NCBI GenBank assembly: GCA_963696935.1
Contig: CAVOMB010000061.1
Location: 8,089 to 72,088 of the forward strand
Direction: 5' to 3'
DNA: 64,000 nucleotides
Source: an uncultured Thermoleophilia bacterium
GTDB lineage: Bacteria > Actinomycetota > Thermoleophilia > UBA2241
The position numbers were made by a program, and so were the translations under genes. Below the pieces are notes generated by a model. That model was not told the origin of the DNA and searched no databases. It saw nothing but the letters and a program-made list of their open reading frames with translations. This document shows, piece after piece, positions 8,600 through 39,194 of this stretch. Position 1 is the stretch's first letter; each line of letters starts with the position of its first letter.

Positions 8600-8610
8600 C
8601 GGGAACGCGA

Positions 8611-9409: not shown

Positions 9410-9433
9410 CCCACCTCGGACAGTGGAGGTGAA

Positions 9434-10163: not shown

Positions 10164-10646
10164 GTGCGCGACACGACACTACAGCGGGTATTCCTCACGT
10201 TCGCAGCCGGCGATCTGACCCGGGCACGGCCTGTGGCCGCCCGTCTGCTGGCCGGCGGCGGCATCGCCCTCGACCAGGCCTTCACCAGCGAACCCTTCGC
10301 CGGTCAGCGCGGCGACATCATCCGCGCCAGCCTCCTCGCGAGACTCCGCCACAGCGCGAGCGCGCTCTGCCTGTACGGTGCGAGGACCACCGACGACGAC
10401 TGGGTCCGCTGGGCGCTCGAGACGGCCGCCGACCTCCGGCTGCCGCTGCTCGGCGTTGCGCTGCCGGGCGAGGTCTCCGGCGACAGCGAGCGGTACCTCA
10501 CCCGTCTCGGCGCCGAACTGGTGCCGCTGGTCCGCGACGACATCGTCGCGCGTACGCACAGCTTCGCGACGCGCCGCGTCGCGCGGCCGCTCGACGCGGC
10601 GTCGATCGCCGAGACGCTGCGCCTCATGCGTCACCCCATCCGCTAG
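10164..10646 (+). CDS. TIR-like domain protein (DUF1863/ThsB-like pattern)
   Basis: RVFLTFAAGDLTRARPVAARLL...GDIIRASLLARLRHSASALCLYGARTTDDDWVRWALETAADLRLPLLGVAL follows the layout of MTH538/ThsB-type TIR-like domains (beta-A FISY-like strand, then S.WV.WE, then short strand). High GC3. GTG at 10164 has GGGAG 6 nt upstream; alternative ATGs are at 10122 and 10134. Confidence 0.45.
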   Translation: MRDTTLQRVFLTFAAGDLTRARPVAARLLAGGGIALDQAFTSEPFAGQRGDIIRASLLARLRHSASALCLYGARTTDDDWVRWALETAADLRLPLLGVALPGEVSGDSERYLTRLGAELVPLVRDDIVARTHSFATRRVARPLDAASIAETLRLMRHPIR

Positions 10647-10657
10647 CACTCTCGCTC

Positions 10658-11482: not shown

Positions 11483-11544
11483 CCGGCGGAAGGTCGGGGC
11501 CGGGCGCCTCGCGCCGCCGGGAGCCCTCGCGGGCGCCCCGTCCG

Positions 11545-12861: not shown

Positions 12862-13036
12862 GCCGCGACTCTATCGGGTCCGCCCGGCGCCTGCAGCGCA
12901 GCCGCGGAGGCCCAGCACCGCCGGCGCAGAGGCCCTGTACCTCACTGCGCCGCTTGAACCCCAGACGGCCGGGGCACCAGAGCTGTAAGGAGACAGCCCG
13001 GCAGCCGGCCGGCTCCCTTCGATCCGGGAGGACACC

Positions 13037-19685: not shown

Positions 19686-21158
19686 TCAGTGCGCCGGCGC
19701 GCCCGGGGCCGGCTCGTGCGGGCCGCGTGTGAGCGAGACGGCCGCGCCGATCAGCGCCAGCGCGGCGCCGGTCAGCATCGCGTACTGATAGCCGGTCGCG
19801 TAGGCGCTCACCGCGTGGGCGGCCACGGCGCCGCCACCGCCTCCGTGAGTGAGCAGCAGACGCCCGCCCACCGCGCCCAGCTGACTGGCCGCGATGCCGC
19901 CGAGCAGCGCGACGCTGAGCGCCTGCCCAGAGGTCCGCATGGTGCTGAGGAAGGCGCTGGCCTGGCTGAGCTGATCCCGCCGGACGCTGCCCATGACGGC
20001 CGACGTATTGGGCGCGCTGAACGCCGCCATGCCCAGTCCGACGACGACTAGGGCGCCGGCCACGTGCCACAGTGGCGCGGTCGCGCTGATGAAGGCGAGC
20101 AGGACCATGCCGGCGGCGAGGGCCACCATGCCGCCGGTGGCGAGCACGCGCGAGCCGATGCGGTCGCTCAGACGGCCGCTGAACGGGCTGAGAGCGGCCA
20201 TCAGCAGCGGCTGGCTCAGCAGCAGCCAGCCGGTCAGCGAAGCGGAGCGGCCCTGGACGAGCTCGAGGAAGATGGCGGTCAGCAGGCCGATGCCGTACAG
20301 CGCCATGTAGTTCAGCAGGGCCGCGGTGTTGGCGGCGGCGAACAGCCGGTTCTTGAGGACGAGGTCGAGGTCGAGGATCGGTGACTCGACCCGCCGCTCG
20401 TGGAATATGAAGGCGACCAGGGACACCGCCGAGAGCGCCAGCAGGCCGATGGTCGCCGGAGAGGCCCAGCCCCACTGCACCGAGAACGTCAGCGGAACCA
20501 GCAGGCAGACCAGGAAGGCTCCGAGGAGCACCGAGCCGAACCAGTCCAGGCGGGGACCGCTTTCGCGCTCGCTGCGCGGCAGCATGAACCAGCCCCAGAG
20601 CAGCACGATGATGCCGATGGGGATGTTGATGAGGAAGATCCAGCGCCAGCCGACGGCATCGGTGATGAAGCCGCCGAGCGGAGGGCCGACCGTCAGGCCG
20701 ATGTACACGGCCATCACGTTGATGCCGAGGGCGCGACCGCGTTCGTTGGGGGGGAAGACCGCCGTGACGATCGCCGCCGACGTAGCGCCCATGAAGGCAG
20801 CCCCCCCACCTTGGATGATGCGCGACACGATGAGCCAGGCGTCGTTCATGCTGGCCGCGCACAGGATGGAGGCGAACGTGAACACGGTGATGCCGAACAG
20901 GTAGTAGCGCACGAGGCCGTGCTGGTCGGCGAGACGGCCGGCCGGGATGAGCAGGACTGCCGTCGTCAGCAGGAACGCGGCCGAGACCCACACCGCGGCC
21001 GTGAAGCTCAGGTGCAGGTCCTTCCCCATCACGGGGAGGGCGACGCTGACGATGGAGCCGTCCAGCGGTACCATGAAGGCGCCGACGGACGTCAGCGCCA
21101 GCAGTTGCCAGCGGCGCCGGTGAAGATCCTCGTCGGTGATGCGTTTGATGAGTGCCAC
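19686..21158 (-). CDS. MFS transporter, DHA2/EmrB-like (14-TMS type)
   Basis: LDGSIVSVALPVMGKDL, GRLADQHG, and IIQGGGAAFMGATSAAIV match the family, and the length is about 490 aa. GTG at 21158 lies 14 nt after the upstream gene's TGA. The track ORF extension overlaps that gene. Confidence 0.85.
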   Translation of the reverse strand: MALIKRITDEDLHRRRWQLLALTSVGAFMVPLDGSIVSVALPVMGKDLHLSFTAAVWVSAAFLLTTAVLLIPAGRLADQHGLVRYYLFGITVFTFASILCAASMNDAWLIVSRIIQGGGAAFMGATSAAIVTAVFPPNERGRALGINVMAVYIGLTVGPPLGGFITDAVGWRWIFLINIPIGIIVLLWGWFMLPRSERESGPRLDWFGSVLLGAFLVCLLVPLTFSVQWGWASPATIGLLALSAVSLVAFIFHERRVESPILDLDLVLKNRLFAAANTAALLNYMALYGIGLLTAIFLELVQGRSASLTGWLLLSQPLLMAALSPFSGRLSDRIGSRVLATGGMVALAAGMVLLAFISATAPLWHVAGALVVVGLGMAAFSAPNTSAVMGSVRRDQLSQASAFLSTMRTSGQALSVALLGGIAASQLGAVGGRLLLTHGGGGGAVAAHAVSAYATGYQYAMLTGAALALIGAAVSLTRGPHEPAPGAPAH

Positions 21159-21172
21159 GAGCGCGGCCGCCC

Positions 21173-21841
21173 TCAGGAGACCCAGGACACGAGCTCGTCC
21201 AGGGCGGCGCGCGAACGCGCGAAGGTATTGGCCGCCGCCTCGAGATCCGGATGCCCGAGTGTGACCGCGACGACCATGCGCTTCTCCTCGGATCCCGGCA
21301 GCAGCGAGCGCAGGATGCCCGGATACCGCACGAGGGTCGTGGTGATGCACGTGCCGAGTCCCTTGTCGTAGGCGGCGAGGCACACGCTCTGCACGAACGA
21401 CGCGGTGTCGTAGCTGGCGGACGCATCGACAAGACAGTTCTCGAAACCGAAGACGAGCAGAACGGGTGCGCCGAAGCAGTCGGCCATGCGCGCCATCGAG
21501 GCGGCCGGGCCTGAGGCTTCACCGGCCGCCTCGAGGGTCGCCGTCCGCGACTTCATGAGGGCGACCGCTCGGGCCGAGCACGCACCGGGCCAGTCGGGAG
21601 TCGGCGTGCCCGGCAGGTCGTGCGCGTCCGCCTCTTCGCGCTCGACGGCGGCCTTGAAAGCGGTCTTGAAGCGCTCGAGGGCCTGTCCCGTGACGGCCCA
21701 GACGTTCCACGCCTGCGTGTTGCGCGACGACGGCGCCCAGCGCGCCTCGTCGAGGATCTCGCGGATGAGGTCCTGCGGGACCGGCTCGGTGGTATAGGCG
21801 CGGATACTGCGGCGCCCGCGGATGACGTCCTCGAACTCCAT
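21173..21841 (-). CDS. Nitroreductase-family flavoprotein
   Basis: MEFEDVIRGRRSIRAYTTEPVPQDLIREILDEARWAPSSRNTQAWNVWAV. ATG at 21841 is preceded by AAGGAG. Confidence 0.85.
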   Translation of the reverse strand: MEFEDVIRGRRSIRAYTTEPVPQDLIREILDEARWAPSSRNTQAWNVWAVTGQALERFKTAFKAAVEREEADAHDLPGTPTPDWPGACSARAVALMKSRTATLEAAGEASGPAASMARMADCFGAPVLLVFGFENCLVDASASYDTASFVQSVCLAAYDKGLGTCITTTLVRYPGILRSLLPGSEEKRMVVAVTLGHPDLEAAANTFARSRAALDELVSWVS

Positions 21842-21919
21842 CGTGAGTCGCTCCTTGGTCAGTGATGAGTCTGTGGTGAGCCTACATCGTGCGCGGCCAG
21901 GGTACGACACGCAGGCGAC

Positions 21920-22564
21920 TCATCGCAGCAGCGCTCGCACGACGGACAAGCCACGCGCGGCGTCGTCGCACCAGGCGTCCGCGCCGACCTGGTCGCTCGC
22001 CGTTTGATCCACGGGAGCGCCGCCGATGACGATCGGCAGGCGGCGCTCCCAGCTCGCCGTGCGCTCCCGCACGAAGGCGATGGTCTGCTTCATGCTGTCG
22101 TAGCCCGTGGTCAGCAGGGAGGAGAGGCCCAGCACGTCGGGGCGTTCGCGCTCGACGGCGTCCGCGATCTGCTCCGGGGGCACGTTGACGCCGAGGTCCA
22201 CCATGTCGTAGCCCTCGGCGTCGAAGAGGGCGATGACGATGTTCTTGCCGATGTCGTGGATGTCGCCGCGCACGGTGGCGATGACCATGCTGTGCTCCCG
22301 AGCGGCGTGCGCGGAGATCTCCCTGCGCGGGACGAGGATTCCCGCCGCCTCGCGGAAGATCTCGCCCGCCATGATGAGAGCGGAGATGAAATAGGTGCCT
22401 TCCTCGTACATCTTGCCGACGCGCTCCATGCCCATGCGGCACTCCGCAAGCAGGGTCGCGGGGTCCTCGCCCGCCTCAAGGCGGCGGCGAATGGCGGCGA
22501 TCGCCCCGCGCTCGTCCATCCGCACGATGAGGTCGTCGAGGGTGGTCTCAGGTGTGGCCGTCAC
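21920..22564 (-). CDS. Cobalamin-binding corrinoid protein, type B (copy B1), co-transcribed with a GntR regulator
   Basis: B12-binding_2 cap helix region followed by a Rossmann-like B12-binding domain with DxHxxG (VRGDIHDIGKN) and SSLLTT. GTG start lies 4 nt after the GntR1 stop, with GAGGAG upstream. Confidence 0.85.
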   Translation of the reverse strand: MTATPETTLDDLIVRMDERGAIAAIRRRLEAGEDPATLLAECRMGMERVGKMYEEGTYFISALIMAGEIFREAAGILVPRREISAHAAREHSMVIATVRGDIHDIGKNIVIALFDAEGYDMVDLGVNVPPEQIADAVERERPDVLGLSSLLTTGYDSMKQTIAFVRERTASWERRLPIVIGGAPVDQTASDQVGADAWCDDAARGLSVVRALLR

Positions 22565-22568
22565 GCGA

Positions 22569-23327
22569 TCATCTCCTCGCCTCGCCGGAACCGACGATGC
22601 CGACCGTTGTCGAGAGGCTGAGGCGGTCGGCGCGCCCGACGAAGCGGCCCCAGCTCTCGGGACGGTCCTCGAAATCGTAGAAGAGGTGTTCGAGGATCCA
22701 CGCCGAGGTGCCCGGCCGCTCGTTCAAATAGGCGGCCTCTGCCTTCGTGAAGGCCGACGCATGCAGGGTCAGGCGGCCATACTTGATGTCCGACCCCGCC
22801 GCGCCGGAGAACAGATCCTGCAGCGCGGTCACGCCGAGCTCGGCCTCGACCAGCGGCCGAGCGGGATCGAAGACCAGGTACTCGCTGTGGTAGAAGAGCG
22901 ACTCTTCCCCGCGCCTGAGCAGCCGCTTGATGGAGATGACGCGGTCGTCCTCCCCGACTTCGAGCTTCTCGCGCACCCGCGCCGAAGGCGAGACGATGCG
23001 CGCCTCGATGATGTGCGCCTCGATGTCGGGGTCGGCAAGGTACTGCTTCAGCTCGCGGAGGTCGAAGAGCGCGGTGCCGAGCTGCGGTACCTTGACGAAC
23101 GTCCCGCGACCGTGCTCCGTCACGGCGACGTCCTCGCGCACGAGCTCGGCGATCGCCCTGCGCACGGTCATCGGACTGACGCCGTAGGCGGCGCAGAGCT
23201 CGGCCTCGGACGGCAGGCGGTCCCCGGGCCGATACCCCCCCCGTGCGATGCTCTCGCGGATGCCGCGAGCGAGCTGAGCGTAGGGCGGCTCGAACGAGTC
23301 TCTGTCGATGGGAGCGCTCCGGTTCAC
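22569..23327 (-). CDS. GntR-family transcriptional regulator, HutC subfamily (wHTH + UTRA), copy 1
   Basis: PPYAQLARGIRESIARGGYRPGDRLPSEAELCAAYGVSPMTVRRAIAELV plus a UTRA-like C-terminal domain. Confidence 0.9.
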   Translation of the reverse strand: MNRSAPIDRDSFEPPYAQLARGIRESIARGGYRPGDRLPSEAELCAAYGVSPMTVRRAIAELVREDVAVTEHGRGTFVKVPQLGTALFDLRELKQYLADPDIEAHIIEARIVSPSARVREKLEVGEDDRVISIKRLLRRGEESLFYHSEYLVFDPARPLVEAELGVTALQDLFSGAAGSDIKYGRLTLHASAFTKAEAAYLNERPGTSAWILEHLFYDFEDRPESWGRFVGRADRLSLSTTVGIVGSGEARR

Positions 23328-23356
23328 GTCGCCAATCTAGCACTTCCCTACTTCCC

Positions 23357-23385
23357 TAGACCACTGGGGAATCGTGCGCTATACT
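23357..23385 (+). promoter_or_regulatory. Candidate promoter for the corrinoid-A1/MT1 operon, overlapping a CTAG-containing operator-like site
   Basis: TAGACC (23357-23362), 17-nt spacer, TATACT (23380-23385). The -35 lies inside cCTAGACCACTg, which resembles a HutC/DasR-type half-site. Confidence 0.3.
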
Positions 23386-23462
23386 GCCTCGTACTGGTGT
23401 CGCTGCCAAACGGCGTGCGGCGCAGCGGCGAACGAGTCTAGCACCGTCAGGGAGGCGCAGAG

Positions 23463-24098
23463 ATGTCACGAGAGCTGACCGACGCCATCGTCGGCGTGCG
23501 TGAGGAGGAGGCCCTCGGCCTCGTCAGGAGCATGCTCGACGCCGGCACAGATCCGAAGGCCGTGCTGGACGAGGCCAAGGACGCGATGACCGAGCTCGGG
23601 CGCCGCTTCGAGTGCGAGGAGGCCTTCATCCCCGAGCTCATCATGGGCGGTGAGATCATGAAGAACATCGCCGACGAGCTGAAGCCGCATCTCAAGGGCG
23701 AGAGCGACGACGCCAGGCGTGGCACGGTCGTCATCGGCACCGTGCAGGGCGACATCCACGACATCGGTAAGGACATCGTCGTGATGATGCTCGACGTCAA
23801 CGGATACGAAGTGCACGATCTCGGCGTGGACGTGCCGGCGGACAGGTTCATCACCGAGATCCGCGAGAGCGGCGCCCAGGTCGTCGGCCTCAGCGGTCTG
23901 CTGACGTTGGCCTTCGACTCGATGAAAGCGACCGTCGACGCGATCAGCGCCGCCGGCCTTCGCACTCAGGTCAAGATCATGGTCGGAGGCGCCCCGGCGG
24001 ATGCCCAGGTGCAGGACTACACCGGCGCCGACGGCTGGGGCAACGACGTCGGCCAGGCGCTCAAGCTCTGCGCCGAGTGGACAGGAGGGGAGGCCTGA
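23463..24098 (+). CDS. Cobalamin-binding corrinoid protein, type A (copy A1)
   Basis: EAFIPELIMGGEIM, TVQGDIHDIGKD (DxHxxG), and GLSGLLT match the family. GGGAGG lies upstream. The stop overlaps the MT1 start (TGATG). Confidence 0.9.
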   Translation: MSRELTDAIVGVREEEALGLVRSMLDAGTDPKAVLDEAKDAMTELGRRFECEEAFIPELIMGGEIMKNIADELKPHLKGESDDARRGTVVIGTVQGDIHDIGKDIVVMMLDVNGYEVHDLGVDVPADRFITEIRESGAQVVGLSGLLTLAFDSMKATVDAISAAGLRTQVKIMVGGAPADAQVQDYTGADGWGNDVGQALKLCAEWTGGEA

Positions 24099-25354
24099 TG
24101 AGCCCGACAGGCGAGGAGCTCTACAAGCAGCGCGAGCAGCGTTTCAACGACATCGTCGCGCTCCAGAAGCCGGACCACGTGCCCGTCATCGGTCACAACA
24201 TCCACTACTTCGCCGACCTCTGGAAGGGTCACTCCCGCAAGGAAGCGGGCTACAACCACACCCAGCACTACGCCGCCATCAAGGATGCGACCATCGAGTT
24301 CGGCTGGGAGTTCGTGCCCGCCAACGCGCTGTTCGCAGCCGACGGCTACGAAGCCCTGGGCATCAAGCAGCTGCGCTGGCCCGGCGGCGACCTGCCCGAC
24401 GACGTCGGCTTCCAGTTCGTCGAGGGCGAGTACATGCTCGCCGACGAGTACGATGAGTTCCTGGCCGACCCGAACGGCTTCACGGTCCGGAAGATCTTCC
24501 CGCGCATCGCCGACAACCTGGCGGGGTTCGAGCAGGTGCCGATCCCGCCGCTCTACTTCATGGCCAACACCTACTACCTGCTCAACGTCGGCGGACCGCT
24601 GCTCGGCGCGCCGCCGCTGCGCAAGGCTCTGGAGAGCCTGCTGGCCATGTCCGACGCGGTCGGCAGCTACTTCGCCGCGGACGCCGTCAACGCCCAGGAG
24701 ATGACCGCGCTGGGCTGCCCGCGCACTTGGGGAGCACCCATAATCCCCGCCTTCGACGTGGTCTCGGACATGCTGCGCTCTCTCCGCGGCAGCACGCTGG
24801 ACATGTATCGCCATCCCGACCAGCTGCTCGCCGCCATCGACCTCATACAGCAGGCTCAGATCGGCCTCGCGCTAATGGTCATGCAGGCGACCGGCAACCC
24901 GCGCGTCTTCATCCCGATGCACCGCGGCGCGGGGGGGTTCATGAGCGACGAGCAGTTCGAGAAGTTCTACTGGCCGTCGTTCAAGGGTCTTGTCATGGCG
25001 GTCATCGAGGCCGGCGGCGTGCCCTGCCCTCTCTTCGAGGGCGACTACACGCCGCGCCTCAAGTACCTCGCCGAGCTGCCGGCGGGCAAGGTCGGCGGCC
25101 ACTTCGACAAGGTCGACCGCAGGAAGTTCAAGGAGATCCTTGGCGACAAGATGTGCTTCTGGGGCAACGTGCCGGTCTCGCTCCTGTGCACCGGCACGCC
25201 GCAGCAGGTCAAGGACGACGTCAAGGAACTCATCGACCTCTTCGGCGACACCGGCGCGCTGATCCTCGACTCCGGCCTCGGCATCCCCGACGAGGCGCGG
25301 CCGGAGAACCTGCACGCGATGCGCGAGGCGGCTGAGGAGTACGGCGTTCTGTGA
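24098..25354 (+). CDS. URO-D-superfamily corrinoid-dependent methyltransferase (MtaA/O-demethylase MT-like), copy MT1
   Basis: 418 aa with URO-D-like C-terminal barrel motifs (FIPMHRGAGGFMSDEQFEKFYWPSF..., CFWGNVP, LILDSGLGIPDEARPENL). Translationally coupled to corrinoid protein A1. Confidence 0.8.
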   Translation: MSPTGEELYKQREQRFNDIVALQKPDHVPVIGHNIHYFADLWKGHSRKEAGYNHTQHYAAIKDATIEFGWEFVPANALFAADGYEALGIKQLRWPGGDLPDDVGFQFVEGEYMLADEYDEFLADPNGFTVRKIFPRIADNLAGFEQVPIPPLYFMANTYYLLNVGGPLLGAPPLRKALESLLAMSDAVGSYFAADAVNAQEMTALGCPRTWGAPIIPAFDVVSDMLRSLRGSTLDMYRHPDQLLAAIDLIQQAQIGLALMVMQATGNPRVFIPMHRGAGGFMSDEQFEKFYWPSFKGLVMAVIEAGGVPCPLFEGDYTPRLKYLAELPAGKVGGHFDKVDRRKFKEILGDKMCFWGNVPVSLLCTGTPQQVKDDVKELIDLFGDTGALILDSGLGIPDEARPENLHAMREAAEEYGVL

Positions 25355-25394
25355 TGCTTGCGCGCTTTCCGGGAGTGTGTAGGGTGGCCGCATC

Positions 25395-26159
25395 GTGACG
25401 GACGCTCCACGCAACGATTCGCGGCGCTCTGAGGAGCGGCCGGGCGGGCTCAAGCTCATCGCCTGCCCGGCCGTCATCGGCGAACTGGCCGACGGCGCTA
25501 CGGAGGGCGTCGACTGCCACGAGCTCGAGGCGCAGCTCCACGTGAGCCCGGAGCGGCTCAAGGAGGCGCTGCGCGTCGCCGTGGCCGAGGCCGACACGCC
25601 GGGCGCGACGATCGTGCTCGGTTACGGCCTCTGCTCCAATTCCGTGCTCGGCCTCAGGACCGAGCACGCCACGCTCGTCGTGCCCAGGGTCGACGACTGC
25701 ATCGCCATGCTGCTCGGCTCCAATGAGGCCTTTGCGGCGGAATCCGAGAAGGAGCGCGGCAGCTACTACGTCGCCAAGGCGTATCTGGAGGAGTGCGACA
25801 CGATCATGAGCGAGCACGAGAAGCTCGTGGAGAAGCGCGGCCGGGAACGCGCCGAGCAGATGATGCGCCTGCTGCTCGCCCACTACACGCGCATCGTGCT
25901 CGTCGACACCGGCCGCTACGACATGGAGCCGCATCGAGCACGTGTCGCCGACTTCGCCGAGACCTTCGACCTCGCCGTCGAGGAGGTGCCGGGCACGACG
26001 CGTATCCTGGACGCGCTCGTGGAGGGCGAATGGGGCGAGGACTTCGTCGTCGCTCCTCCCGGACACGAGCTCACCCTCCGGGACTTCCGGCCCGAACTCT
26101 TCGCCGGCGGCGCCTCCTCCCCGCCCCCAGCCGCATCGCACGGTACCCGGCAGGCGTGA
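25395..26159 (+). CDS. DUF1638 domain protein
   Basis: LKLIACPAVIGEL..., IVLGYGLCSNSV, VPRVDDCIAMLLGS, and GSYYVAKAYLEE match the DUF1638 pattern, which recurs next to corrinoid methyltransferase genes. GTG start. Confidence 0.7.
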   Translation: MTDAPRNDSRRSEERPGGLKLIACPAVIGELADGATEGVDCHELEAQLHVSPERLKEALRVAVAEADTPGATIVLGYGLCSNSVLGLRTEHATLVVPRVDDCIAMLLGSNEAFAAESEKERGSYYVAKAYLEECDTIMSEHEKLVEKRGRERAEQMMRLLLAHYTRIVLVDTGRYDMEPHRARVADFAETFDLAVEEVPGTTRILDALVEGEWGEDFVVAPPGHELTLRDFRPELFAGGASSPPPAASHGTRQA

Positions 26160-26733
26160 ACGTCCTCTGCATCGCCGGCTTCCTCGGTAAGACGACTCAT
26201 CGGGGTCGCGCGCGCCATGACCCAGCGCGGCCTGCAGCTCGCTGTGATCGAGAACGAGATCGGCGAGGTCGGCGTCGACGACGGCTACGTCCGCGAGCAG
26301 GGCCTGCCCGTCCAGGAGTTCTTCGGCACGATGCATCTGCTGCACCCTGCAAGCCGGACTGGTGGAGGCTCTCCGCGCCGTCGAGAACCGGTACGGACCG
26401 GACTGGGTGATCATCGAGTCCACCGGGCTGGCCGCGCCGGGCGATCTGCTCGGCCTCGTGGTCGACAACTCTCCGGACCTCGACACGATACGTGTACTGA
26501 CGCTCGTCGACGCCGTGCGCTGGCCGATGCTCCTCGAGGTGGTCGAACCGTTGGTCACGGCCCAACTCGAGGTCGCCGACATCGTCGCCGTCAACAAGGT
26601 GGACGAAGTCGACGAGGAAGCACTGGCCGCGGTCATCGAGAGCGTCGGCCGGATCGCCGGCGAGGCGACCATCCTGGCGGTGTCGGCGACCACCGGCGCC
26701 GGCATGAAGCGCTGGCTGGGCGCCGTCGTCTGA
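26158..26733 (+). pseudogene. G3E-family (COG0523/CobW-like) GTPase, disrupted
   Basis: Three frames are needed. Frame A gives VNVLCIAGFLGKTT, a P-loop lacking two residues of GxxGxGKT. Frame B gives LIGVARAMTQRGLQLAVIENEIGEVGVDDGY. Frame C gives CICCTLQAGLVEALRAVENRYGPDWVIIESTGLA...AVNKVD. The shifts are near 26196-26200 and 26325-26331. Confidence 0.6.
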
Positions 26734-26930
26734 TGAGCGAGCACGGCGGCCGCGGTCACGATGGCCACGACCTTGCGGTGGGCGGCCACGGCGACCTCGC
26801 GTTCCATGTCACGGCTCTCGCGGCCGAGCCGGCGCTCACCGGAGGCGGCGCCGGCATGGCCCGAGATGCCGTCCTCACGGTCAATGTCATCGTGTTCGGC
26901 GTGGACGAGCGGACGCTCCCTCTGTCGTGA
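26733..26930 (+). CDS. Candidate small His/Gly-rich ORF overlapping the GTPase stop (TGATG)
   Basis: MSEHGGRGHDGHDLAVGGHGDLAFHV... (65 aa). The start overlaps the upstream stop. His-rich stretches are common in G3E metallochaperones. No homology recognised. Confidence 0.25.
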   Translation: MSEHGGRGHDGHDLAVGGHGDLAFHVTALAAEPALTGGGAGMARDAVLTVNVIVFGVDERTLPLS

Positions 26931-27131
26931 CGAGCGCCTGGTCGCGCGCGACCGGCGCCGAGACCGTCTGGCGGCGCTAGTCCCGCTCGGCAACGGCTGC
27001 GACGTCCGCGACCGCGCCGCCTGCCAAGCGGCCGCGACCCCGGGTCGCCAAGCCCGCGCGGGACGTGGCCCCGCGCGCCCCGACACACTCAGGCGACCAC
27101 TCTCACCCTCGGCACGTCGGCGACGGGGAGA

Positions 27132-27168
27132 GGAGGGGCGGGACGGGCTCTTCGCCCGCCGCCCCTCC
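27132..27168. terminator. GC-rich hairpin between convergent transcription units
   Basis: gaggggcgg..cgggc pairs with gcccg.ccgcccctc (27133-27167) with a small bulge. It lies 54 nt from the MT2 stop. Confidence 0.4.
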
Positions 27169-27221
27169 CCGTTGCCGCTCGCCGTCGGCCCGCAGGCCTG
27201 GTCACGTCGCCTAGGGCACGC

Positions 27222-28571
27222 TCAGATCTCCGCGCCGTACTTGCGTCCGGCGTCGATGAACGCCTTGTACGCGGCCGGGTCGGCCTCGTCCAGGACGATG
27301 CCGCTGCTGAGAATGAAGCCCCCGTCCTTGGCGGTCTTGCCGAGCAGGTCCTTGACGTAGGCGTCCATCTGCTCCGGAGCGCCCATCGTGAACAGCGCGG
27401 CGGGCACGTTGCCGCCGATACACTGGCGCCGGCCGACGGTGGCCTTGGCGCGCTCCATGTCGGTGGCGTCGAACATCCAGACCATGCGGCCGGCGGGGAT
27501 GTCCTCGTCGGCGATGACCTCGAGGCGCTCGTTGTAGGCGCCCTCGGCGAAGACCCACGGCACGAGGCCCTCTTCGATCAGGCCGAGCAGCACAGCCTTG
27601 AAGCTCGGCCAGTAGAGCTCCTTGTAGTCGGCATCGGACATGAAGCCGTCGGCGCCCTTGTGGATCGGGATGAAGACGATCGGGTTCCCCGTCATGTTGC
27701 TCGAGCGGACCGCGAACTCGACGGCTTGCGGCGCGAGCCGGTCCATGGCGGCCTTGAGCTTGTCCGGCTGGCGGAACTTGTCCAGCATGAGGCCGCGGGT
27801 GCCGCGCATGGTGTCGCCGAGGATGTCGTAGGGAGCCTTGGTGGCGCCGCCCGCCGTCTGCGGGATGCCCAGGGTGGCCATGACCCTGCCGTCGGCCGCC
27901 ATGGCCGCCTGCATCCACTCCATGGCGGCGTCGCCGGCCTCGGCCAGCTTCTTGAGCATCTCCTTGACCGGCGGAGCCGAGAAGCCGGCGAAGAGCGGCG
28001 GCGTGAAGGGCATCTCCACGAGATCCGTCCACGGCGCGAGCATCGAGAACGGCTCCATCGCGCCGAACACGCGCGGCAGGTAGGTGCGCTGCCAGTATGT
28101 GCCCGGATCCTGGATGAGAGCGGGGTACTCGTCGCTCTTCATCCACTCCTGCTCGATGTACTGGTAGGAGGTGTCGTCCGGCGTGCCGTGCCCGGGCCAC
28201 TTGTAGAGGTGGTAGTCGAGGATGTCGAAGACCTTGCCCGGCACGATGCTCAGGGTCGAGGCGAGCCCGTCGGGCATCGTCTCCTCGTGGAACTTGAACC
28301 AGTCCTCCTTGAAGATCTCGTAGTCGTAGTACGCCTGCTTGCCGGTGTGGCCGTAGAAACGGAACGGCAGGAGGCCGATCGCCGGCGCGATCGGCACGGT
28401 CGCGGGCTTCTTGAGATCGAGCACGTCGCGGTACAGCTGTACGCGGTCACGGTAGGTCTGCGCTACCTCGGGCGAGGCGAACTCGAGCGGCACGTTCTGC
28501 CAAGCGTCGAGCCGGAACGCCAGCCGCTCTTCGGACGTCAGCTCTTTCCAGTTATCAGGCAGCATCGTCAT
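27222..28571 (-). CDS. URO-D-superfamily corrinoid-dependent methyltransferase, copy MT2
   Basis: 449 aa, a paralogue of MT1 (FIPIHKGADGFMSDADYKELYWPSFKAVLLGLIEEG, CIGGNVP, ILSSGIVLDEADPAAY). Its start overlaps the corrinoid A2 stop (ATGA). Confidence 0.8.
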   Translation of the reverse strand: MTMLPDNWKELTSEERLAFRLDAWQNVPLEFASPEVAQTYRDRVQLYRDVLDLKKPATVPIAPAIGLLPFRFYGHTGKQAYYDYEIFKEDWFKFHEETMPDGLASTLSIVPGKVFDILDYHLYKWPGHGTPDDTSYQYIEQEWMKSDEYPALIQDPGTYWQRTYLPRVFGAMEPFSMLAPWTDLVEMPFTPPLFAGFSAPPVKEMLKKLAEAGDAAMEWMQAAMAADGRVMATLGIPQTAGGATKAPYDILGDTMRGTRGLMLDKFRQPDKLKAAMDRLAPQAVEFAVRSSNMTGNPIVFIPIHKGADGFMSDADYKELYWPSFKAVLLGLIEEGLVPWVFAEGAYNERLEVIADEDIPAGRMVWMFDATDMERAKATVGRRQCIGGNVPAALFTMGAPEQMDAYVKDLLGKTAKDGGFILSSGIVLDEADPAAYKAFIDAGRKYGAEI

Positions 28572-29200
28572 GCACCCCCCACCCAGGTCTTGGCGAGCTC
28601 GACCGCAGCCACGGCGTCCTTGCCCCAGTCGTCGGCGCCGGCGAACTCCACGACGTCACCGGTCACGGGCGCCCCACCGAGCATGATCTTCACGTCGTCG
28701 CGCAGGCCGGCCTCCTCGATGGCGGCCACGGTGGCCTTCATCGACTCGAAGGCGACGGTGAGCAGGCCGCTGAGGCCGAGGATCTGTGCCTTGCTGTCAC
28801 GGACCGCGTCGACGACCTTCGCGACCGGCACGTCGACCCCCAGATCCACGACGTCGAAGCCGCCGATGTCGAGCATCGTCACCACGATGTCCTTGCCGAT
28901 GTCGTGGATGTCGCCCTGCACGGTGCACATCACGACGGTGCCGAGCTTCTCGCCGCCGGAGTCGGCCTTGAGGTAGGGCTTCAGCTTGGCCGTGATGCCG
29001 GTCATGATCTCGCCGGCCATGATGAGCTCGGGGATGAACGCCTCGCCGTCGGCGAACCGCTGGCCGATCACTTCCATGGCTTCCCTGCAGGCGGCGACCA
29101 CGCTGAGTGGGTCGGCGCCGCCCTGCAGCAGCTCACCGGCGATCCGCAGCGCGTCGTCTTCGCGCAGCTCGATCACCGCATTCTTCAGTTCGTCCGGCAT
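28568..29200 (-). CDS. Cobalamin-binding corrinoid protein, type A (copy A2)
   Basis: EAFIPELIMAGEIM, TVQGDIHDIGKD, and GLSGLLT match the family. ATG at 29200 is preceded by GGGAGG. The track ORF extension upstream is spurious. Confidence 0.9.
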   Translation of the reverse strand: MPDELKNAVIELREDDALRIAGELLQGGADPLSVVAACREAMEVIGQRFADGEAFIPELIMAGEIMTGITAKLKPYLKADSGGEKLGTVVMCTVQGDIHDIGKDIVVTMLDIGGFDVVDLGVDVPVAKVVDAVRDSKAQILGLSGLLTVAFESMKATVAAIEEAGLRDDVKIMLGGAPVTGDVVEFAGADDWGKDAVAAVELAKTWVGGA

Positions 29201-29260
29201 TGGGCCTCCCAGGTCCGACTGTGCACGGCAAGCGTCCACCGTGACTTTCCGTAAGCGCCA

Positions 29261-29290
29261 TGACATAATATATAGATAAATAGACAAAGT
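29261..29290. promoter_or_regulatory. AT-rich island (about 20% GC) in the divergent A2/GntR2 intergenic region; likely promoter/operator core
   Basis: tgacataatatatagataaatagacaaagt is striking in a roughly 70% GC background. It contains -10-like hexamers on both strands (CATAAT, TATATT) and TAGA(C/T) repeats. Confidence 0.4.
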
Positions 29291-29329
29291 GCAAGTGAAG
29301 CCGCGTTGCGCTGATAGGATGCGCCCAAG

Positions 29330-30136
29330 ATGGATGACCAGACACCAGCCGCAAGACTCGCGCCGCTCGCGCCGCTCGACCGCGATTCCTACGAGCCGGC
29401 GTATATGCAGCTCGTCAACGTACTGAGCCACGCGATCGCGACGGGGCAGTACCGGGCCGGCGACCAGCTTCCCACCGAGGCCGAGCTGTGCGCCGCCTGG
29501 GACGTGAGCCCGATGACCGTGCGCCGCGCGATCGGCGTGCTGCTCGACCGCGGGGCGGTCAGCACCACACGCGGGCGCGGCACCTTCGTCAAGCCGCTGC
29601 AGCTGGCCTCGGCGACCTTCGAGCTCAGCACCTTCCGCGAACTGCTGGGAGATCCGCGCGTCGAGGCCAAAGTGCTGGAGGCGCGCGTCGTGCCGGCGGG
29701 CGCGCGCGCTGCGGCCAATCTGGCCGTCCCTGAAGGGACGCGCATCATCAGCATCCGGCGTCTGTTGGCGCGCGGTGCAGAACCTCTGATGTATCACCGC
29801 GAGTCGCTCGTCTACGATCCGACGACGCCCACCGTCGAGTCCGAGCTCGGCGTCACAGCCCTACGCGACCTCTTCGAGGGCAGCCTCGGAGCCGGCCCCA
29901 AGCAAGGGGAGCTCATCATCCACGCCTCAGTCCTGACCGAGGACGAGGCACGCCACGTGGATCGTCCCCCCGGCAGCGCCGCGCTGGTGCTCGAGCACCT
30001 CTTCTACGACTACGACGACGCGCCGATGAGCTGGGGGCGCTTCGTCTGCCGCGGCGACCTGCTGCAGTTCCACGCCCGCATCGGTGTCCAGGCGCCGGCG
30101 CCGGAGACCAAGCCACGCTCGAGGAGGCGCTCATGA
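29330..30136 (+). CDS. GntR-family transcriptional regulator, HutC subfamily, copy 2
   Basis: EPAYMQLVNVLSHAIATGQYRAGDQLPTEAELCAAWDVSPMTVRRAIGVLL plus UTRA. A paralogue of 22569-23327. Confidence 0.9.
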   Translation: MDDQTPAARLAPLAPLDRDSYEPAYMQLVNVLSHAIATGQYRAGDQLPTEAELCAAWDVSPMTVRRAIGVLLDRGAVSTTRGRGTFVKPLQLASATFELSTFRELLGDPRVEAKVLEARVVPAGARAAANLAVPEGTRIISIRRLLARGAEPLMYHRESLVYDPTTPTVESELGVTALRDLFEGSLGAGPKQGELIIHASVLTEDEARHVDRPPGSAALVLEHLFYDYDDAPMSWGRFVCRGDLLQFHARIGVQAPAPETKPRSRRRS

Positions 30137-30804
30137 GGCCCAGACCGGGCCTCGACCCGGCGTCGCTCGTCGGTCGCGTCGCCGCGCTCGACGAGCAGGG
30201 CGCTCTCGAGGCCGTCCGCGCCAGGGTCGCGGGCGGCGACGATGCCATGGCGATCATCGCCGACTGCCAGCGTGGTCTGCAGTTGGTCGGCGAAGACTAC
30301 GCCTCCAGCGTGTACTTCATCAGCGGCCTCATCATGGCCGGCGAGATCTTCCGCGAGGCGATGGAGATCCTGGAGCCGCTGCTGCCGGCTGCCGGCGAGC
30401 GTGCCTCGGTCGAGGCGCCAGGCGGCGTGCTCATCTGCACCGTTCGTGGCGACATCCACGACCTCGGCAAGAACATCGTCATCATGATGCTGCGCTCCCA
30501 CGGCATCGTCGTGCACGACCTCGGCGTCGACGTGTCCCCGGACGAGGTGGTACGCAAGGCCCTCGCATTGCAGCCAGCCGTCCTCGGCCTCTCGGGCCTT
30601 CTCACCGCCGCCGCCGAAGGCATGAAGGCGACGGTCGCGGCGGTGCGCGACGCCGGGGACCAGATCCGCGCCCTGCCGATCATCATCGGCGGCAGTATCG
30701 TGAGCGAGGAGGCGTGCGCCTGGACCGGCGCCGACCTGTGGGCCAACGACGCCTCGCGCGGCGTGCGGCTCATCCGCGAGGCGATCGCCGCCAAGCGCGG
30801 CTGA
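30133..30804 (+). CDS. Cobalamin-binding corrinoid protein, type B (copy B2), translationally coupled to GntR2
   Basis: YFISGLIMAGEIFREA, TVRGDIHDLGKN (DxHxxG), and GLSGLLT match the family. The start overlaps the GntR2 stop (ATGA). Confidence 0.85.
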   Translation: MRPRPGLDPASLVGRVAALDEQGALEAVRARVAGGDDAMAIIADCQRGLQLVGEDYASSVYFISGLIMAGEIFREAMEILEPLLPAAGERASVEAPGGVLICTVRGDIHDLGKNIVIMMLRSHGIVVHDLGVDVSPDEVVRKALALQPAVLGLSGLLTAAAEGMKATVAAVRDAGDQIRALPIIIGGSIVSEEACAWTGADLWANDASRGVRLIREAIAAKRG

Positions 30805-39118: not shown

Positions 39119-39194
39119 TGGTGGGCGACGTTGGAATTGAACCAACGACCTCGTGCTTGTCGAGCACGCGCTCTCCCAACTGAGCTAGTCGCCC
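39119..39194 (-). tRNA. tRNA-Val (anticodon GAC), CCA encoded
   Basis: GGGCGAC-TA-GCTC-AGTTGGGA-GAGC-G-CGTGC-TCGACAA-GCACG-AGGTC-GTTGG-TTCAATT-CCAAC-GTCGCCC-A-CCA. All four stems pair perfectly. 76 nt. Confidence 0.95.

What the first reader, a model, noticed from the sequence alone, without database searches (positions are those of the whole stretch)
21920..30804. Mirror-duplicated corrinoid methyltransferase locus lacking the usual partner enzymes
Two paralogous modules lie in inverted orientation.
- Left module: corrinoid protein B1 (21920-22564,-) <- GntR1 (22569-23327,-) | divergent promoter | corrinoid protein A1 (23463-24098,+) -> URO-D-family methyltransferase MT1 (24098-25354,+).
- Right module: MT2 (27222-28571,-) <- A2 (28568-29200,-) | divergent promoter | GntR2 (29330-30136,+) -> B2 (30133-30804,+).

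All four corrinoid proteins keep the DxHxxG cobalamin-ligand motif. A1 and A2 read GDIHDIGKD; B1 and B2 read GDIHD[IL]GKN. They fall into two clear sequence types.

Known corrinoid methyl-transfer systems combine a substrate methyltransferase, one corrinoid protein, a methyl-acceptor methyltransferase (THF/pterin or CoM type) and an ATP-dependent RACE/RamA activase. I find no acceptor methyltransferase and no activase in the window. There are also two corrinoid carriers per methyltransferase.

Where MtaA/MtbA-type enzymes carry an HxC zinc motif, both MTs appear to read H-R/K-G (FIPMHRGAGGF, FIPIHKGADGF). That would argue against thiol (CoM) methylation and for an O- or N-demethylase-like role. 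The alignment behind this is inferred by eye.
Basis: partly seen in the sequence, partly recalled or inferred. Interest (0 to 1): 0.8.

Follow-up and report, generated by a model that had tools for sequence, protein, structure and literature searches.

The report
Paired corrinoid demethylase regulons in Thermoleophilia
A soil actinobacterium carries two related, separately regulated gene sets that probably strip methyl groups from plant-derived compounds using vitamin B12; the enzymes are of a known kind, but their regulator-linked second B12 protein and unusual helper genes have not been described.

Summary
The eight genes exist as described, and all domain calls and motifs hold. The two modules are old paralogs (35-54% identity). 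The mirror layout is conserved in related uncultured soil Thermoleophilia MAGs.

MT1 and MT2 are substrate-side "MT I" enzymes of the UroD superfamily. The family profile hits the chloromethane enzyme CdmB at E 4e-67 and MtaA only at E 0.86.

- DUF1638, a decayed CobW-like GTPase and a decayed ~150-aa ORF after MT1.
- A nitroreductase and an MFS transporter after B1.

The 64 kb hold no acceptor methyltransferase or activase. This is a lineage trait. MT II or RACo lie next to homologous MT genes in 0 of 23 Thermoleophilia-type loci, against 21 of 64 loci from anaerobes. DUF1638 shows the reverse pattern (13/23 vs 1/64). Unlinked partners have precedent.

The B-type corrinoid protein always directly follows a HutC-type GntR (17 of 17) and moves with it as a cassette. 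It has diagnostic residues. In one spirochaete cluster it is the only local carrier.

Verdict: a new variant of a known system. The substrate, the acceptor and the role of B are unresolved.

The parts
19686..21165 (-). MFS transporter, last gene of the GntR1-B1-NR-MFS operon. The maximal ORF runs to 21383. The likely start is near 21165, judged from homologs of about 490 aa.
   Evidence: Pfam MFS_1 E 2e-57. The NR-MFS pair is conserved beside the A-MT-DUF1638 module in L006, L007, L008, L010, L085 and L086.
21173..21910 (-). FMN nitroreductase-family protein (NfnB-like). The probable true start is the ATG at 21844, giving 222 aa as in relatives.
   Evidence: Pfam Nitroreductase E 3e-26. Best PDB hits are 3gr3 (1e-21) and 2wzv NfnB. 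The BluB model scores 48 bits against a cut-off of 150, so it is not BluB. Found in 7/23 high-GC loci and 0/64 others.
21920..22564 (-). B1, the GntR-linked (B-type) corrinoid protein, 214 aa.
   Evidence: B12-binding_2 + B12-binding. DxHxxG, SxL and GG motifs are retained. Homologs are 214 aa. It begins 4 nt after the GntR1 stop.
22569..23327 (-). GntR1, a HutC-subfamily repressor (GntR HTH + UTRA).
   Evidence: Pfam GntR 1e-21 and UTRA 7e-15. NCBIfam hits are to HutC/PhnF-type models, below cut-offs.
23336..23385 (.). Divergent control region of module 1. It holds the inverted repeat ACTTCCCTAGACCACTGGGGAAT (23350-23372; ideal form ACTTCCCTA-N6-TAGGGAAGT), TCTAGCAC boxes at 23336 and 23437, and a sigma70-like promoter for A1 (TAGACC-17-TATACT, 23357-23385).
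   Evidence: Phylogenetic footprint invariant in 7 relatives. The palindrome is perfect in L085 and L086, and CTAGACCA[CG]T is found in the control regions of the 11 GntR1-type loci (10 fetched loci plus the window), with one further match outside them (L025). Promoter scan.
23463..24098 (+). A1, the MT-linked (A-type) corrinoid protein, 211 aa.
   Evidence: Pfam. Best PDB hit is 4jgi at 1e-45. Its stop overlaps the MT1 start. A CP-MT fusion exists in relatives (P0098/L016).
24098..25354 (+). MT1, a UroD-superfamily substrate:corrinoid methyltransferase (MT I type), 418 aa.
   Evidence: Pfam URO-D. CdmB 9rui hits at E 1e-25 with the single sequence and 4e-67 with the profile. The AF2 model (pLDDT 81) matches UroD-fold structures with TM 0.62-0.68. 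H275, G277, E314, D340 and C353 are invariant.
25395..26159 (+). DUF1638 protein, 254 aa, intact. Candidate corrinoid maintenance or reactivation factor.
   Evidence: PF07796 E 7e-40. C80, C102, H49 and D101 are invariant and C24 and D100 nearly invariant. Found in 13/23 high-GC loci vs 1/64 others. Literature link to B12-dependent MetH: PMC5764234, PMC12478193.
26156..26733 (+). Short CobW/G3E-family GTPase gene, apparently a pseudogene. It has a 6-nt deletion in the P-loop (GFLGSGKTT becomes GFLGKTT), a 5-nt deletion and a 1-nt insertion relative to intact orthologs.
   Evidence: Pfam cobW hit to the C-terminal part only. DNA alignment with L006, L008 and L013. Intact orthologs of 195-196 aa resemble NF041053. 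The gene is absent in L010.
26733..26930 (+). Remnant (65 aa) of a conserved ~140-155-aa ORF that follows the CobW-like gene in relatives.
   Evidence: Alignment with L084, L085, L006 and L008 orthologs. The window copy lacks about 55 internal and about 20 C-terminal residues, including the GC[TI]LVGH[IV]KG motif. No Pfam or NCBIfam family.
27222..28571 (-). MT2, the paralogous MT I-type methyltransferase, 449 aa.
   Evidence: Pfam URO-D. 35% identical to MT1. Orthologs are 81-83% identical in L007, L008 and L010.
28568..29200 (-). A2, an A-type corrinoid protein, 210 aa, overlapping the MT2 start by 4 nt.
   Evidence: Pfam. 54.5% identical to A1.
29241..29290 (.). Divergent control region of module 2. 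It holds the conserved ATAATATATAGATAAATAGA (29265-29284), related to the perfect HutC-type palindrome TGTCTAGACA seen in L085 and L086, and a sigma70-like promoter for GntR2 (GTGACT-17-CATAAT, 29241-29269).
   Evidence: Footprint across 6 loci. Motif comparison. Promoter scan.
29330..30136 (+). GntR2, a HutC-subfamily repressor.
   Evidence: Pfam UTRA 2e-19 and GntR 4e-16.
30133..30804 (+). B2, a B-type corrinoid protein, 223 aa, overlapping the GntR2 stop by 4 nt. It is followed by the trpEGDCFBA operon, which is unrelated.
   Evidence: Pfam. 44% identical to B1. trp genes identified.

Best explanation
The locus holds two paralogous, separately regulated 'front ends' of corrinoid-dependent demethylation systems in an uncultured soil Thermoleophilia bacterium.

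Proposed mechanism for each module:
1. A HutC-type GntR repressor sits on a palindromic operator that overlaps the divergent promoters. It is released by a small-molecule effector.
2. This induces an A-type corrinoid protein and a UroD-superfamily MT I. The MT I takes a methyl group from a substrate onto Co(I) of A, giving CH3-Co(III)-A. The substrate is most likely an aryl methyl ether from plant or lignin material. A haloalkane or another methyl-X compound is possible.
3. The methyl group is then passed to tetrahydrofolate by a pterin-binding MT II, and oxidised Co(II) is re-reduced by an activase. Both are encoded elsewhere in the genome.
4. DUF1638 acts locally in corrinoid maintenance. 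In relatives it works with a short CobW-like GTPase and a ~150-aa protein, both decayed here.
5. The MFS transporter moves substrate or product. The nitroreductase handles a redox step or the phenolic/quinone product.
6. The B-type corrinoid protein is a second, cobalamin-competent carrier that is inherited and expressed as a unit with the GntR. Its specific role is unresolved (spare or basal carrier, or regulatory partner).

Shown here: gene content, family placement, conservation, operator footprints and neighbourhood statistics. Inferred: substrate, acceptor, repression logic, and the roles of DUF1638, NR, MFS and B.
For: Family placement:
- The MT family profile hits CdmB over its full length at E 4e-67, UroD at about 1e-8 and MtaA at 0.86.
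- CdmB's clade comprises the O-demethylase MT I enzymes MtvB, OdmB, VdmB and MtoB (PMC13222342).
- A1 and B1 are both closest to 4jgi and 1y80. From my own knowledge these are O-demethylase-type corrinoid proteins.

A-MT coupling:
- A and MT overlap in both modules. There are 58 A->MT pairs in 86 loci and a CP-MT fusion, P0098.

Link to folate in homologous clusters:
- L071 reads B<-GntR | MT I -> FTHFS -> Pterin_bind -> RACo. L076 reads A -> MT I -> Pterin_bind.
- MT II is found in 18/64 and RACo in 8/64 non-Thermoleophilia loci.

Lineage trait:
- 0/23 high-GC loci have MT II or RACo, while 13/23 have DUF1638.
- Pfam lists for L001, L003, L004, L084, L085 and L086 agree.

Regulation:
- Invariant footprints overlap the predicted promoters.
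- The operators travel with the regulons.

Substrate hints:
- L085 has phloretin-hydrolase-like, chalcone-isomerase and EthD genes.
- L004, L014 and L017 have VAO-type flavoproteins.

Prior survey:
- Soil Actinobacteriota express methyl-O and methyl-N corrinoid methyltransferase genes (PMC10805028).
Against: - No MT II or activase could be shown for this organism. Only 64 kb of it are available, so 'encoded elsewhere' is an assumption.
- The probes used for the census come from distant phyla and could miss divergent versions. The loci are not phylogenetically independent.
- The substrate is not established. The nearest characterised enzyme (CdmB) acts on haloalkanes and not on methoxylated aromatics.
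- The family's invariant H-x-G motif is absent from CdmB.
- The function of DUF1638 is unknown. Its AF2 model has no structural neighbour.
- In alphaproteobacteria DUF1638 co-occurs with RamA and does not replace it (PMC5764234).
Confidence: 0.6

Rival explanations
1. The GntR->B pair is a corrinoid-state sensor. B is not primarily a carrier. It is a regulatory partner whose cobalamin state (apo/holo, Co(II), or CH3-Co(III) made by the MT when substrate is present) modulates DNA binding of the HutC-type repressor. That would couple operon expression to B12 availability or methyl flux.
For: - 17 of 17 GntR genes in the loci are followed at once by a corrinoid protein, in Actinomycetota, Deltaproteobacteria, Spirochaetes and Firmicutes. 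The spacing is -8 to +16 nt.
- The cassette is gained or lost as a unit. It is absent from the left module of the syntenic L085 and L086.
- B1 always pairs with GntR1-type and B2 with GntR2-type.
- B-type proteins have lost residues that are nearly invariant in MT-linked carriers (K171, R167, W206, M109 in A1 numbering) and gained their own (G45, Y53, S61, P177 in B1 numbering).
- In the HMM test, 3 of 5 cross-phylum GntR-linked proteins prefer the B-type model, while 34/34 MT-linked ones prefer the A-type model by 66-113 bits.
Against: - In L071 the B-type protein is the only corrinoid protein within 10 kb of an otherwise complete MT I/MT II/RACo set, and in L003 it is the only one near the MT. 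There it presumably carries methyl groups.
- There are no GntR-B12 fusions among the top 120 homologs.
- B keeps all cobalamin-binding motifs of working carriers.
- UTRA domains normally bind small molecules.
- Strict separation of B from A in NJ trees has only 24-44% bootstrap support.
Confidence: 0.25
2. This is a self-contained, non-canonical system. It would need no MT II or ATP-dependent activase. For example, MT shuttles methyl groups between two carriers or two substrates, or DUF1638 with the nitroreductase forms an alternative oxygen-tolerant reactivation route that replaces RACE.
For: - DUF1638 and MT II/RACo are distributed in a complementary way between lineages.
- The DUF1638-CobW-orf150 trio is conserved, and DUF1638::CobW fusions exist (P0138, P0189, P0204).
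- An FMN reductase is co-conserved in 7/23 high-GC loci.
- DUF1638 has conserved Cys/His/Asp residues, which are candidate metal or cluster ligands.
Against: - Absence from a 20-64-kb neighbourhood says nothing about the rest of the genome.
- There is precedent for unlinked activases (PMC13222342).
- DUF1638 co-occurs with RamA in alphaproteobacteria (PMC5764234).
- The CobW-like gene and orf150 are decayed in this window and absent in L010, so the trio is not essential for this locus.
- No biochemical activity is known for DUF1638.
Confidence: 0.1
3. MT1 and MT2 are methylcobamide:thiol (MtaA/MtbA/Mlp-like) methyltransferases. They would act on the acceptor side, methylating a thiol or selenol.
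For: - They share the UroD fold. The Foldseek TM-score to MtaA 4ay7/4ay8 is 0.66-0.68, the same as to UroD.
- True MtaA/CmuA-family genes do occur with the same DUF1638-CobW accessory genes in L084.
Against: - NCBIfam MtaA/CmuA/MtbA models score 21-41 bits for MT1 against cut-offs of 235-600, and give no hit for MT2.
- The profile-to-MtaA E-value is 0.86, against 4e-67 to the MT I enzyme CdmB.
- H-x-C is replaced by an invariant H-x-G.
- The proteins are 418-449 aa with the N-terminal extension typical of MT I. MtaA-type enzymes are about 340 aa.
Confidence: 0.03

Closest known systems
Corrinoid-dependent O-demethylase systems of anaerobes (OdmABCD/Vdm of Acetobacterium dehalogenans, MtvABC of Moorella thermoacetica, Dhaf O-demethylases, MtoABCD of Methermicoccus)
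   Same: - A UroD-superfamily MT I of about 420-450 aa, encoded next to a two-domain corrinoid protein (cap + Rossmann, His-on DxHxxG).
- The closest solved corrinoid proteins are 4jgi and 1y80.
- Homologous clusters in anaerobes carry pterin-binding MT II and RACo (L071, L076).
   Different: - No MT II or activase in the window or in any Thermoleophilia neighbourhood examined.
- DUF1638 (plus a CobW-like GTPase and a ~150-aa ORF) follows the MT gene instead.
- Each regulon has a second, GntR-coupled corrinoid protein.
- The host is a soil actinobacterium, not a classical strict anaerobe. Its oxygen relationship was not determined here.
CdmBCA chloromethane dehalogenase/methyltransferase of Acetobacterium dehalogenans (PDB 9rui; PMC13222342)
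   Same: - The closest solved homolog of MT1 (E 1e-25 single sequence, 4e-67 profile, full-length alignment).
- An MT I + CP arrangement.
- Its activase is encoded elsewhere.
- It does not depend on zinc.
   Different: - Only about 25-30% identity in the alignment (estimated by eye).
- The family-invariant motif P-x-H-[RK]-G-A-[DG]-G-F-M is W--YN-S-F-L in CdmB, so the active-site chemistry may differ.
- cdm has an adjacent MT II (CdmA).
Split methionine synthase / MtgC glycine-betaine system of aerobic roseobacters, with DUF1638 and RamA-like proteins (PMC5764234, PMC12478193)
   Same: - A DUF1638 gene sits next to a stand-alone corrinoid protein gene in an organism that is not a classical anaerobe.
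- Partner enzymes are scattered around the genome.
   Different: - The substrate methyltransferase there is MttB-type or MetH-derived, not UroD-type.
- No GntR-CP cassette or CobW-like gene is reported there.
- The DUF1638 role is inferred from mutant fitness only.
Type 1 mlp gene clusters (MtaA-like proteins + CP + RACE; PMC10418091) and MtaA/MtbA CoM methyltransferases
   Same: UroD-superfamily enzymes working with a corrinoid protein.
   Different: - Those are MtaA-like enzymes (more than 25% identical to CoM methyltransferases, about 340 aa, thiol/selenol chemistry) with an in-cluster RACE, found in strict anaerobes.
- MT1 and MT2 fail the MtaA-family models.

Membership tests
UroD-superfamily MT I (substrate:corrinoid methyltransferases; CdmB/MtoB/MtvB/OdmB/VdmB clade) | UroD-type TIM-barrel fold | tested here: met
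   Pfam URO-D E 1e-17 and 2e-14. The AF2 model (pLDDT 81) matches UroD-fold structures with TMt 0.62-0.68 and E about 1e-9.
UroD-superfamily MT I (substrate:corrinoid methyltransferases; CdmB/MtoB/MtvB/OdmB/VdmB clade) | Closer in sequence to a characterised MT I than to UroD or MtaA, including the N-terminal extension | tested here: met
   The profile of 24 family members hits CdmB at E 4e-67 in three stretches spanning profile positions 1-413. UroD hits at 3e-8 and MtaA at 0.86.
UroD-superfamily MT I (substrate:corrinoid methyltransferases; CdmB/MtoB/MtvB/OdmB/VdmB clade) | Encoded next to its cognate corrinoid protein | tested here: met
   A1/MT1 and A2/MT2 overlap by 1 and 4 nt. There are 58 such pairs in the fetched loci and a CP-MT fusion, P0098.
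UroD-superfamily MT I (substrate:corrinoid methyltransferases; CdmB/MtoB/MtvB/OdmB/VdmB clade) | Catalyses methyl transfer from a substrate to Co(I) of the corrinoid protein | not testable with these tools
   Needs biochemistry.
Complete four-component O-demethylase system | Pterin-binding or MtrH-type MT II and a RACE/RamA activase present | tested here: not met
   None in the 64-kb window. MT II or RACo are found in 0/23 high-GC loci. Presence elsewhere in the genome could not be tested.
MtaA/MtbA methylcobamide:CoM methyltransferases | Match to the curated family models, and the H-x-C...C zinc motif | tested here: not met
   TIGR01463 scores 39.7 bits (cut-off 235). NF004889 scores 41 (cut-off 244). 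MtaA/MtbA equivalog models score 21-27 (cut-offs 400-600). MT2 has no hit. The motif is an invariant H-x-G.
Methyltransferase-cognate corrinoid proteins (B12-binding_2 + B12-binding) | Two-domain architecture with the DxHxxG...SxL...GG cobalamin-binding signature | tested here: met
   All four proteins have the architecture. G100, D101, H103, D104, G106, S148, L151, G181 and G182 are at least 90% conserved over 87 proteins including the B-type. Scores against TIGR02370 are 108-166 bits, below its cut-off of 215.
GntR family, HutC subfamily | N-terminal GntR winged HTH plus C-terminal UTRA effector domain | tested here: met
GntR family, HutC subfamily | Binds a palindromic operator of the GT-N-TA-N-AC type in its own control region | tested here: inconclusive
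   Conserved palindromes (ACTTCCCTA-N6-TAGGGAAGT, and TGTCTAGACA-like) overlap predicted promoters. Binding was not tested.
DUF1638 (PF07796) | Match to the family model | tested here: met
   E 7e-40, 137 bits against a cut-off of 27. The function of the family is unknown.
CobW/G3E P-loop GTPases | Intact reading frame with a GxxGxGKT P-loop | tested here: not met
   The window copy has lost two P-loop residues and is frameshifted twice relative to intact orthologs. It is classed as a pseudogene, with the caveat that the assembly has at least one other probable indel error.

The most novel reading that the evidence does not exclude
Soil Thermoleophilia may run UroD-type corrinoid demethylases with two undescribed support modules.

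1. A HutC-type GntR and a dedicated B-type corrinoid protein form a sensor pair. It would read the cobalamin or methyl-cobalamin state and set operon expression.
2. DUF1638, a short G3E GTPase and a ~150-aa protein form a corrinoid loading or reactivation system. It would take the local place of the ATP-dependent RACE activase, perhaps as an adaptation to oxic soil.
Probability: 0.15. Interest if true: 0.75.

Novelty: new variant of a known kind. Interest (0 to 1): 0.45.

Why it matters
Corrinoid-dependent demethylation of methoxylated aromatics and other methyl-X compounds is textbook chemistry of strict anaerobes. Surveys now show that soil Actinobacteriota express such genes (PMC10805028), but nothing is known about how these systems are organised, regulated or kept reduced there.

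This locus and its relatives define a conserved Thermoleophilia architecture with two testable handles:
- A regulator-corrinoid protein cassette that recurs across phyla.
- The DUF1638/CobW-like/orf150 set. This could give a function to a widespread domain of unknown function already implicated in B12-dependent methionine synthesis.

If these bacteria demethylate lignin- or flavonoid-derived ethers in soil, that is a route of C1 flow not yet counted in soil carbon budgets.

Tried and rejected
- **Source look-up.** An exact-sequence look-up of the window's DUF1638 protein found nothing. The organism was inferred from 83-93% identical homologs in MFD soil MAGs.
- **DUF1638 structure.** The AF2 model (pLDDT 85 for the best model, 56-65 for the other four) has no significant PDB neighbour (best E 0.009, TM 0.25 or less). 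A sequence search of the PDB was also empty.
- **BluB idea for the nitroreductase.** Rejected. It is NfnB-like, and the BluB model scores far below its cut-off.
- **Cobalamin riboswitch or other structured RNA.** None. Only a tRNA at 39122-39194. The A1 leader hairpin is no better than shuffles (z 0.03).
- **B-type as a strict clade.** NJ bootstrap support is only 24-44%. An earlier run was invalid because of NaN distances, and one timed out. I replaced it with diagnostic residues and an HMM classification.
- **Rosetta-stone fusion of GntR with a B12 domain.** None among the top 120 B1 homologs.
- **Type 1 mlp gene cluster.** Rejected. That is a different enzyme subfamily with an in-cluster RACE.
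- **C353 as the equivalent of the distal zinc cysteine of MtaA.** Considered. The weak profile alignment to 4ay7 does not support it, and I could not make a residue-level structural alignment.
- **Foldseek and CdmB.** Foldseek could not rank CdmB, because 9rui does not appear among the Foldseek hits, probably because it is not yet in that library copy.

Full report
**1. The observation**

The window is about 70% G+C, so genes were called by third-position GC.
- Four proteins with B12-binding_2 + B12-binding.
- Two with GntR + UTRA.
- Two with URO-D.

The quoted motifs are present. All-vs-all BLASTP confirms two corrinoid-protein types: A1-A2 54.5%, B1-B2 44%, A-B 38-41%. It also confirms paralogy of the regulators (54%) and the methyltransferases (35%), with E-values from 1e-39 to 1e-88.

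The same mirror layout occurs in related MAGs (L006 and L010; L007 and L008 with insertions). There the orthologs are 83-94% identical. So the two modules are old paralogs, not a recent duplication. In other relatives (L001, L009, L015) both A-MT pairs sit in one operon behind a single GntR-B pair.

**2.

- Downstream of MT1 lie a DUF1638 gene (25395-26159; PF07796, E 7e-40) and a CobW/G3E-type GTPase gene.
- Alignment with three intact orthologs shows the window's GTPase copy has lost six bases inside the P-loop, five bases further on, and gained one base. L010 lacks the gene altogether.
- The next ORF (26733-26930) is a 65-aa remnant of a conserved ORF of about 140-155 aa, with motifs GC[TI]LVGH[IV]KG, FHxTxL and NxIVFGV.
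- Downstream of B1 lie an NfnB-like FMN nitroreductase and an MFS transporter.
- Downstream of B2 the trp operon begins.
- One caveat applies. The SAH hydrolase gene is also frameshifted near 59,770. The assembly therefore probably contains indel errors. Even so, 5- and 6-nt deletions plus an internally deleted neighbour argue for real decay.

**3. What the methyltransferases are**

- MT1's best solved relative is CdmB (9rui), the chloromethane:corrinoid MT I of Acetobacterium dehalogenans (E 1e-25).
- A profile of 24 family members hits CdmB along its whole length at E 4e-67. It hits UroD at about 1e-8 and the CoM methyltransferase MtaA only at E 0.86.
- NCBIfam MtaA/CmuA/MtbA models score 21-41 bits against cut-offs of 235-600 for MT1. 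They do not hit MT2.
- An AF2 model (pLDDT 81) has the UroD fold.
- CdmB belongs with the O-demethylase MT I enzymes MtvB, OdmB, VdmB and MtoB (PMC13222342).

MT1 and MT2 are therefore substrate-side MT I enzymes.

H275 and G277 are invariant, as are E314, D340 and C353. As an argument about chemistry it is weak, because some O-demethylase MT I enzymes contain zinc and others, including CdmB, do not (PMC13222342). CdmB itself lacks the His.

**4. Who has it**

More than 1,400 homologs exist. The closest (58-90% identity) are all uncultured soil Thermoleophilia/Actinomycetota MAGs. Relatives at 38-50% identity are in Dehalococcoidia, Desulfobacterales, Syntrophorhabdaceae, Moorellales, Spirochaetes and Asgard archaea.

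**5. The missing partners**

The whole window was scanned. It contains no pterin-binding/MtrH methyltransferase and no RACE/RamA activase.

In anaerobes the partners are often adjacent:
- L071 reads B<-GntR | MT I -> FTHFS -> Pterin_bind -> RACo.
- L076 reads A -> MT I -> Pterin_bind.

A tblastn census of all fetched neighbourhoods gives the following:

| Gene | High-GC (Thermoleophilia-type) loci | Other loci |
|---|---|---|
| MT II | 0/23 | 18/64 |
| RACo | 0/23 | 8/64 |
| DUF1638 | 13/23 | 1/64 |
| Short CobW-like GTPase | 8/23 | 0/64 |
| ~150-aa ORF | 6/23 | 0/64 |
| Nitroreductase | 7/23 | 0/64 |

- Fisher p is 0.001 for MT II or RACo and 1e-8 for DUF1638. For loci of 15 kb or more it is 0/18 against 11/32, p = 0.004.
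- These p-values overstate independence, because many MAGs are close relatives. The probes also come from distant phyla.
- Precomputed Pfam lists for six Thermoleophilia loci agree.

The lack of local partners is thus a lineage trait, and it has precedent. The Cdm activase is unlinked (PMC13222342), and roseobacter corrinoid systems are scattered around the genome (PMC5764234, PMC12478193). It does not show that the system works without them.

**6. DUF1638 and its companions**

- The order DUF1638 -> CobW-like GTPase (about 195 aa, nearest NF041053) -> ~150-aa ORF recurs after CP/URO-D genes. In L084 these are true MtaA/CmuA-family enzymes.
- Three database proteins fuse DUF1638 to the GTPase.
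- DUF1638 has invariant C80, C102, H49 and D101, and nearly invariant C24 and D100. It has no structural neighbour.
- Mutants of a DUF1638 gene in Phaeobacter are methionine auxotrophs, like mutants in split MetH and a RamA-like protein, and the two families co-occur (PMC5764234).
- A later paper lists DUF1638 as predicted to help recharge cobalamin (PMC12478193).

A corrinoid maintenance role is the best guess. It is an inference.

**7. The B-type corrinoid protein**

- Across 87 corrinoid proteins from the loci, every one of the 17 that directly follow a GntR gene differs from the 58 that precede an MT gene.
- A-B identity never exceeds 45%. Each GntR-linked protein is closer to a GntR-linked protein of another locus than to any MT-linked one.
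- Diagnostic residues separate the types. B-type has G45, Y53, S61 and P177 (B1 numbering). The MT-linked type has A, F, P and K at those positions in 56-58 of 58 sequences.
- The MT-linked type has its own near-invariant M109, R167, K171 and W206 (A1 numbering), which B-type lacks.
- HMMs were trained on Thermoleophilia sequences only. All 34 MT-linked proteins from other phyla prefer the MT-linked model by 66-113 bits. Three of five GntR-linked ones prefer the GntR-linked model. Two Firmicutes cases are intermediate.
- A strict tree split is weakly supported (24-44% bootstrap).
- GntR and B are separated by -8 to +16 nt.
- The pair behaves as a cassette. L085 and L086 are syntenic with the window but lack GntR1-B1 on the left.
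- On the other hand, B keeps all cobalamin-binding motifs. It is also the only local carrier in L071's otherwise complete cluster and in L003.
- No GntR-B12 fusion was found.

I therefore treat B as a competent carrier that is tied to the regulator. I keep the sensor model as the main rival.

**8. Regulation**

- Footprinting across relatives shows an invariant ACTTCCCTAGACCA[C/G]T upstream of A1. It is part of the inverted repeat ACTTCCCTA-N6-TAGGGAAGT, which is perfect in L085 and L086.
- An invariant ATAATATATAGATAAATAGA lies between A2 and GntR2.
- Both elements overlap sigma70-like promoters.
- The GntR-less A-MT-DUF1638 module of L085 and L086 carries ATAATGTCTAGACAAAT, a perfect GT-N-TA-N-AC palindrome of the HutC type.
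- So the operators travel with the regulons.
- There is no riboswitch.

**9. Substrate**

The substrate is not established. Context hints point to plant aromatics:
- Phloretin-hydrolase-like, chalcone-isomerase and EthD genes inside the L085 cluster.
- VAO-type flavoproteins beside other islands.
- The closest carrier structures, which are O-demethylase-type (their identity is from my own knowledge).

Haloalkanes remain possible, given CdmB.

**10. Comparison and verdict**

This works like the front half of an anaerobe-type O-demethylase. It passes the membership tests for MT I and for the cognate corrinoid protein. It fails those for MtaA-type enzymes and for a locally complete four-component system.

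Soil Actinobacteriota have already been reported to express such genes (PMC10805028). GntR genes near corrinoid methyltransferase genes have been noted in passing (PMC4791908). I found no description of the GntR-corrinoid protein cassette or of the DUF1638/CobW/orf150 set in UroD-type clusters.

It is a new variant of a known kind, of moderate interest.

Noticed in passing
window 58826-60250 (-): The S-adenosylhomocysteine hydrolase gene is split by a frameshift near 59,770. The N-terminal part (…IKGEDDED) is in a different frame from the rest (YYAHINA…). Because the gene is probably essential, this looks like an assembly indel error and not a pseudogene.
   Followed up: partly
L003:17883-20644: A GCV_T-family (folate-binding aminomethyltransferase/LigM-like) gene sits directly upstream of an MT2-like URO-D gene. 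It lies behind an ABC transporter and near a GntR-B pair and hydantoinase genes. It could be a folate-dependent partner or a parallel demethylase.
   Followed up: no
L085:11868-15237: Two DAPG/phloretin-hydrolase-like genes, an EthD gene and a chalcone-isomerase N-domain gene lie between two corrinoid methyltransferase modules. This suggests flavonoid catabolism linked to demethylation.
   Followed up: no
L004, L014, L016, L017, L018 (e.g. L014:13222-16820): Thermoleophilia also carry islands with a non-URO-D MttB-family methyltransferase, its own corrinoid protein and a TetR regulator with a zinc-ribbon. A conserved YheO-type PAS/HTH regulator plus an aminotransferase follows tandem MT1-like genes.
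   Followed up: partly
L084:6912-11768: True MtaA/CmuA-family enzymes (340 and 351 aa; TIGR01463 at 191 and 121 bits) occur with a corrinoid protein and the same DUF1638-CobW-orf155 trio. So the accessory set is shared between different corrinoid methyltransferase types.
   Followed up: partly
P0138, P0189, P0204 (L086:10001-11329): DUF1638 is fused to the CobW-like GTPase domain in three database proteins. In unfused relatives the GTPase start (GTG) overlaps the DUF1638 stop codon (GTGA).
   Followed up: partly
window 1576-12870, compared with L084:11769-19036: A block with an amino-acid permease, a GAF-HisKA_3 sensor kinase, a nitroreductase and a class-III aminotransferase lies upstream in the window. 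The same families flank the corrinoid cluster in L084, and a TM1586-type nitroreductase neighbours the cluster in L001.
   Followed up: no
window 47487-52115 (+): A 1,542-aa signalling protein with multiple PAS domains, a GAF domain, and GGDEF and EAL domains. A separate PAS-GGDEF protein lies at 42114-43376 (-).
   Followed up: no
window 27100-27200: A G+C-rich hairpin region lies between the decayed accessory genes and the end of MT2. It is probably a bidirectional terminator. It matched only as weak chance hits to miRNA models.
   Followed up: no
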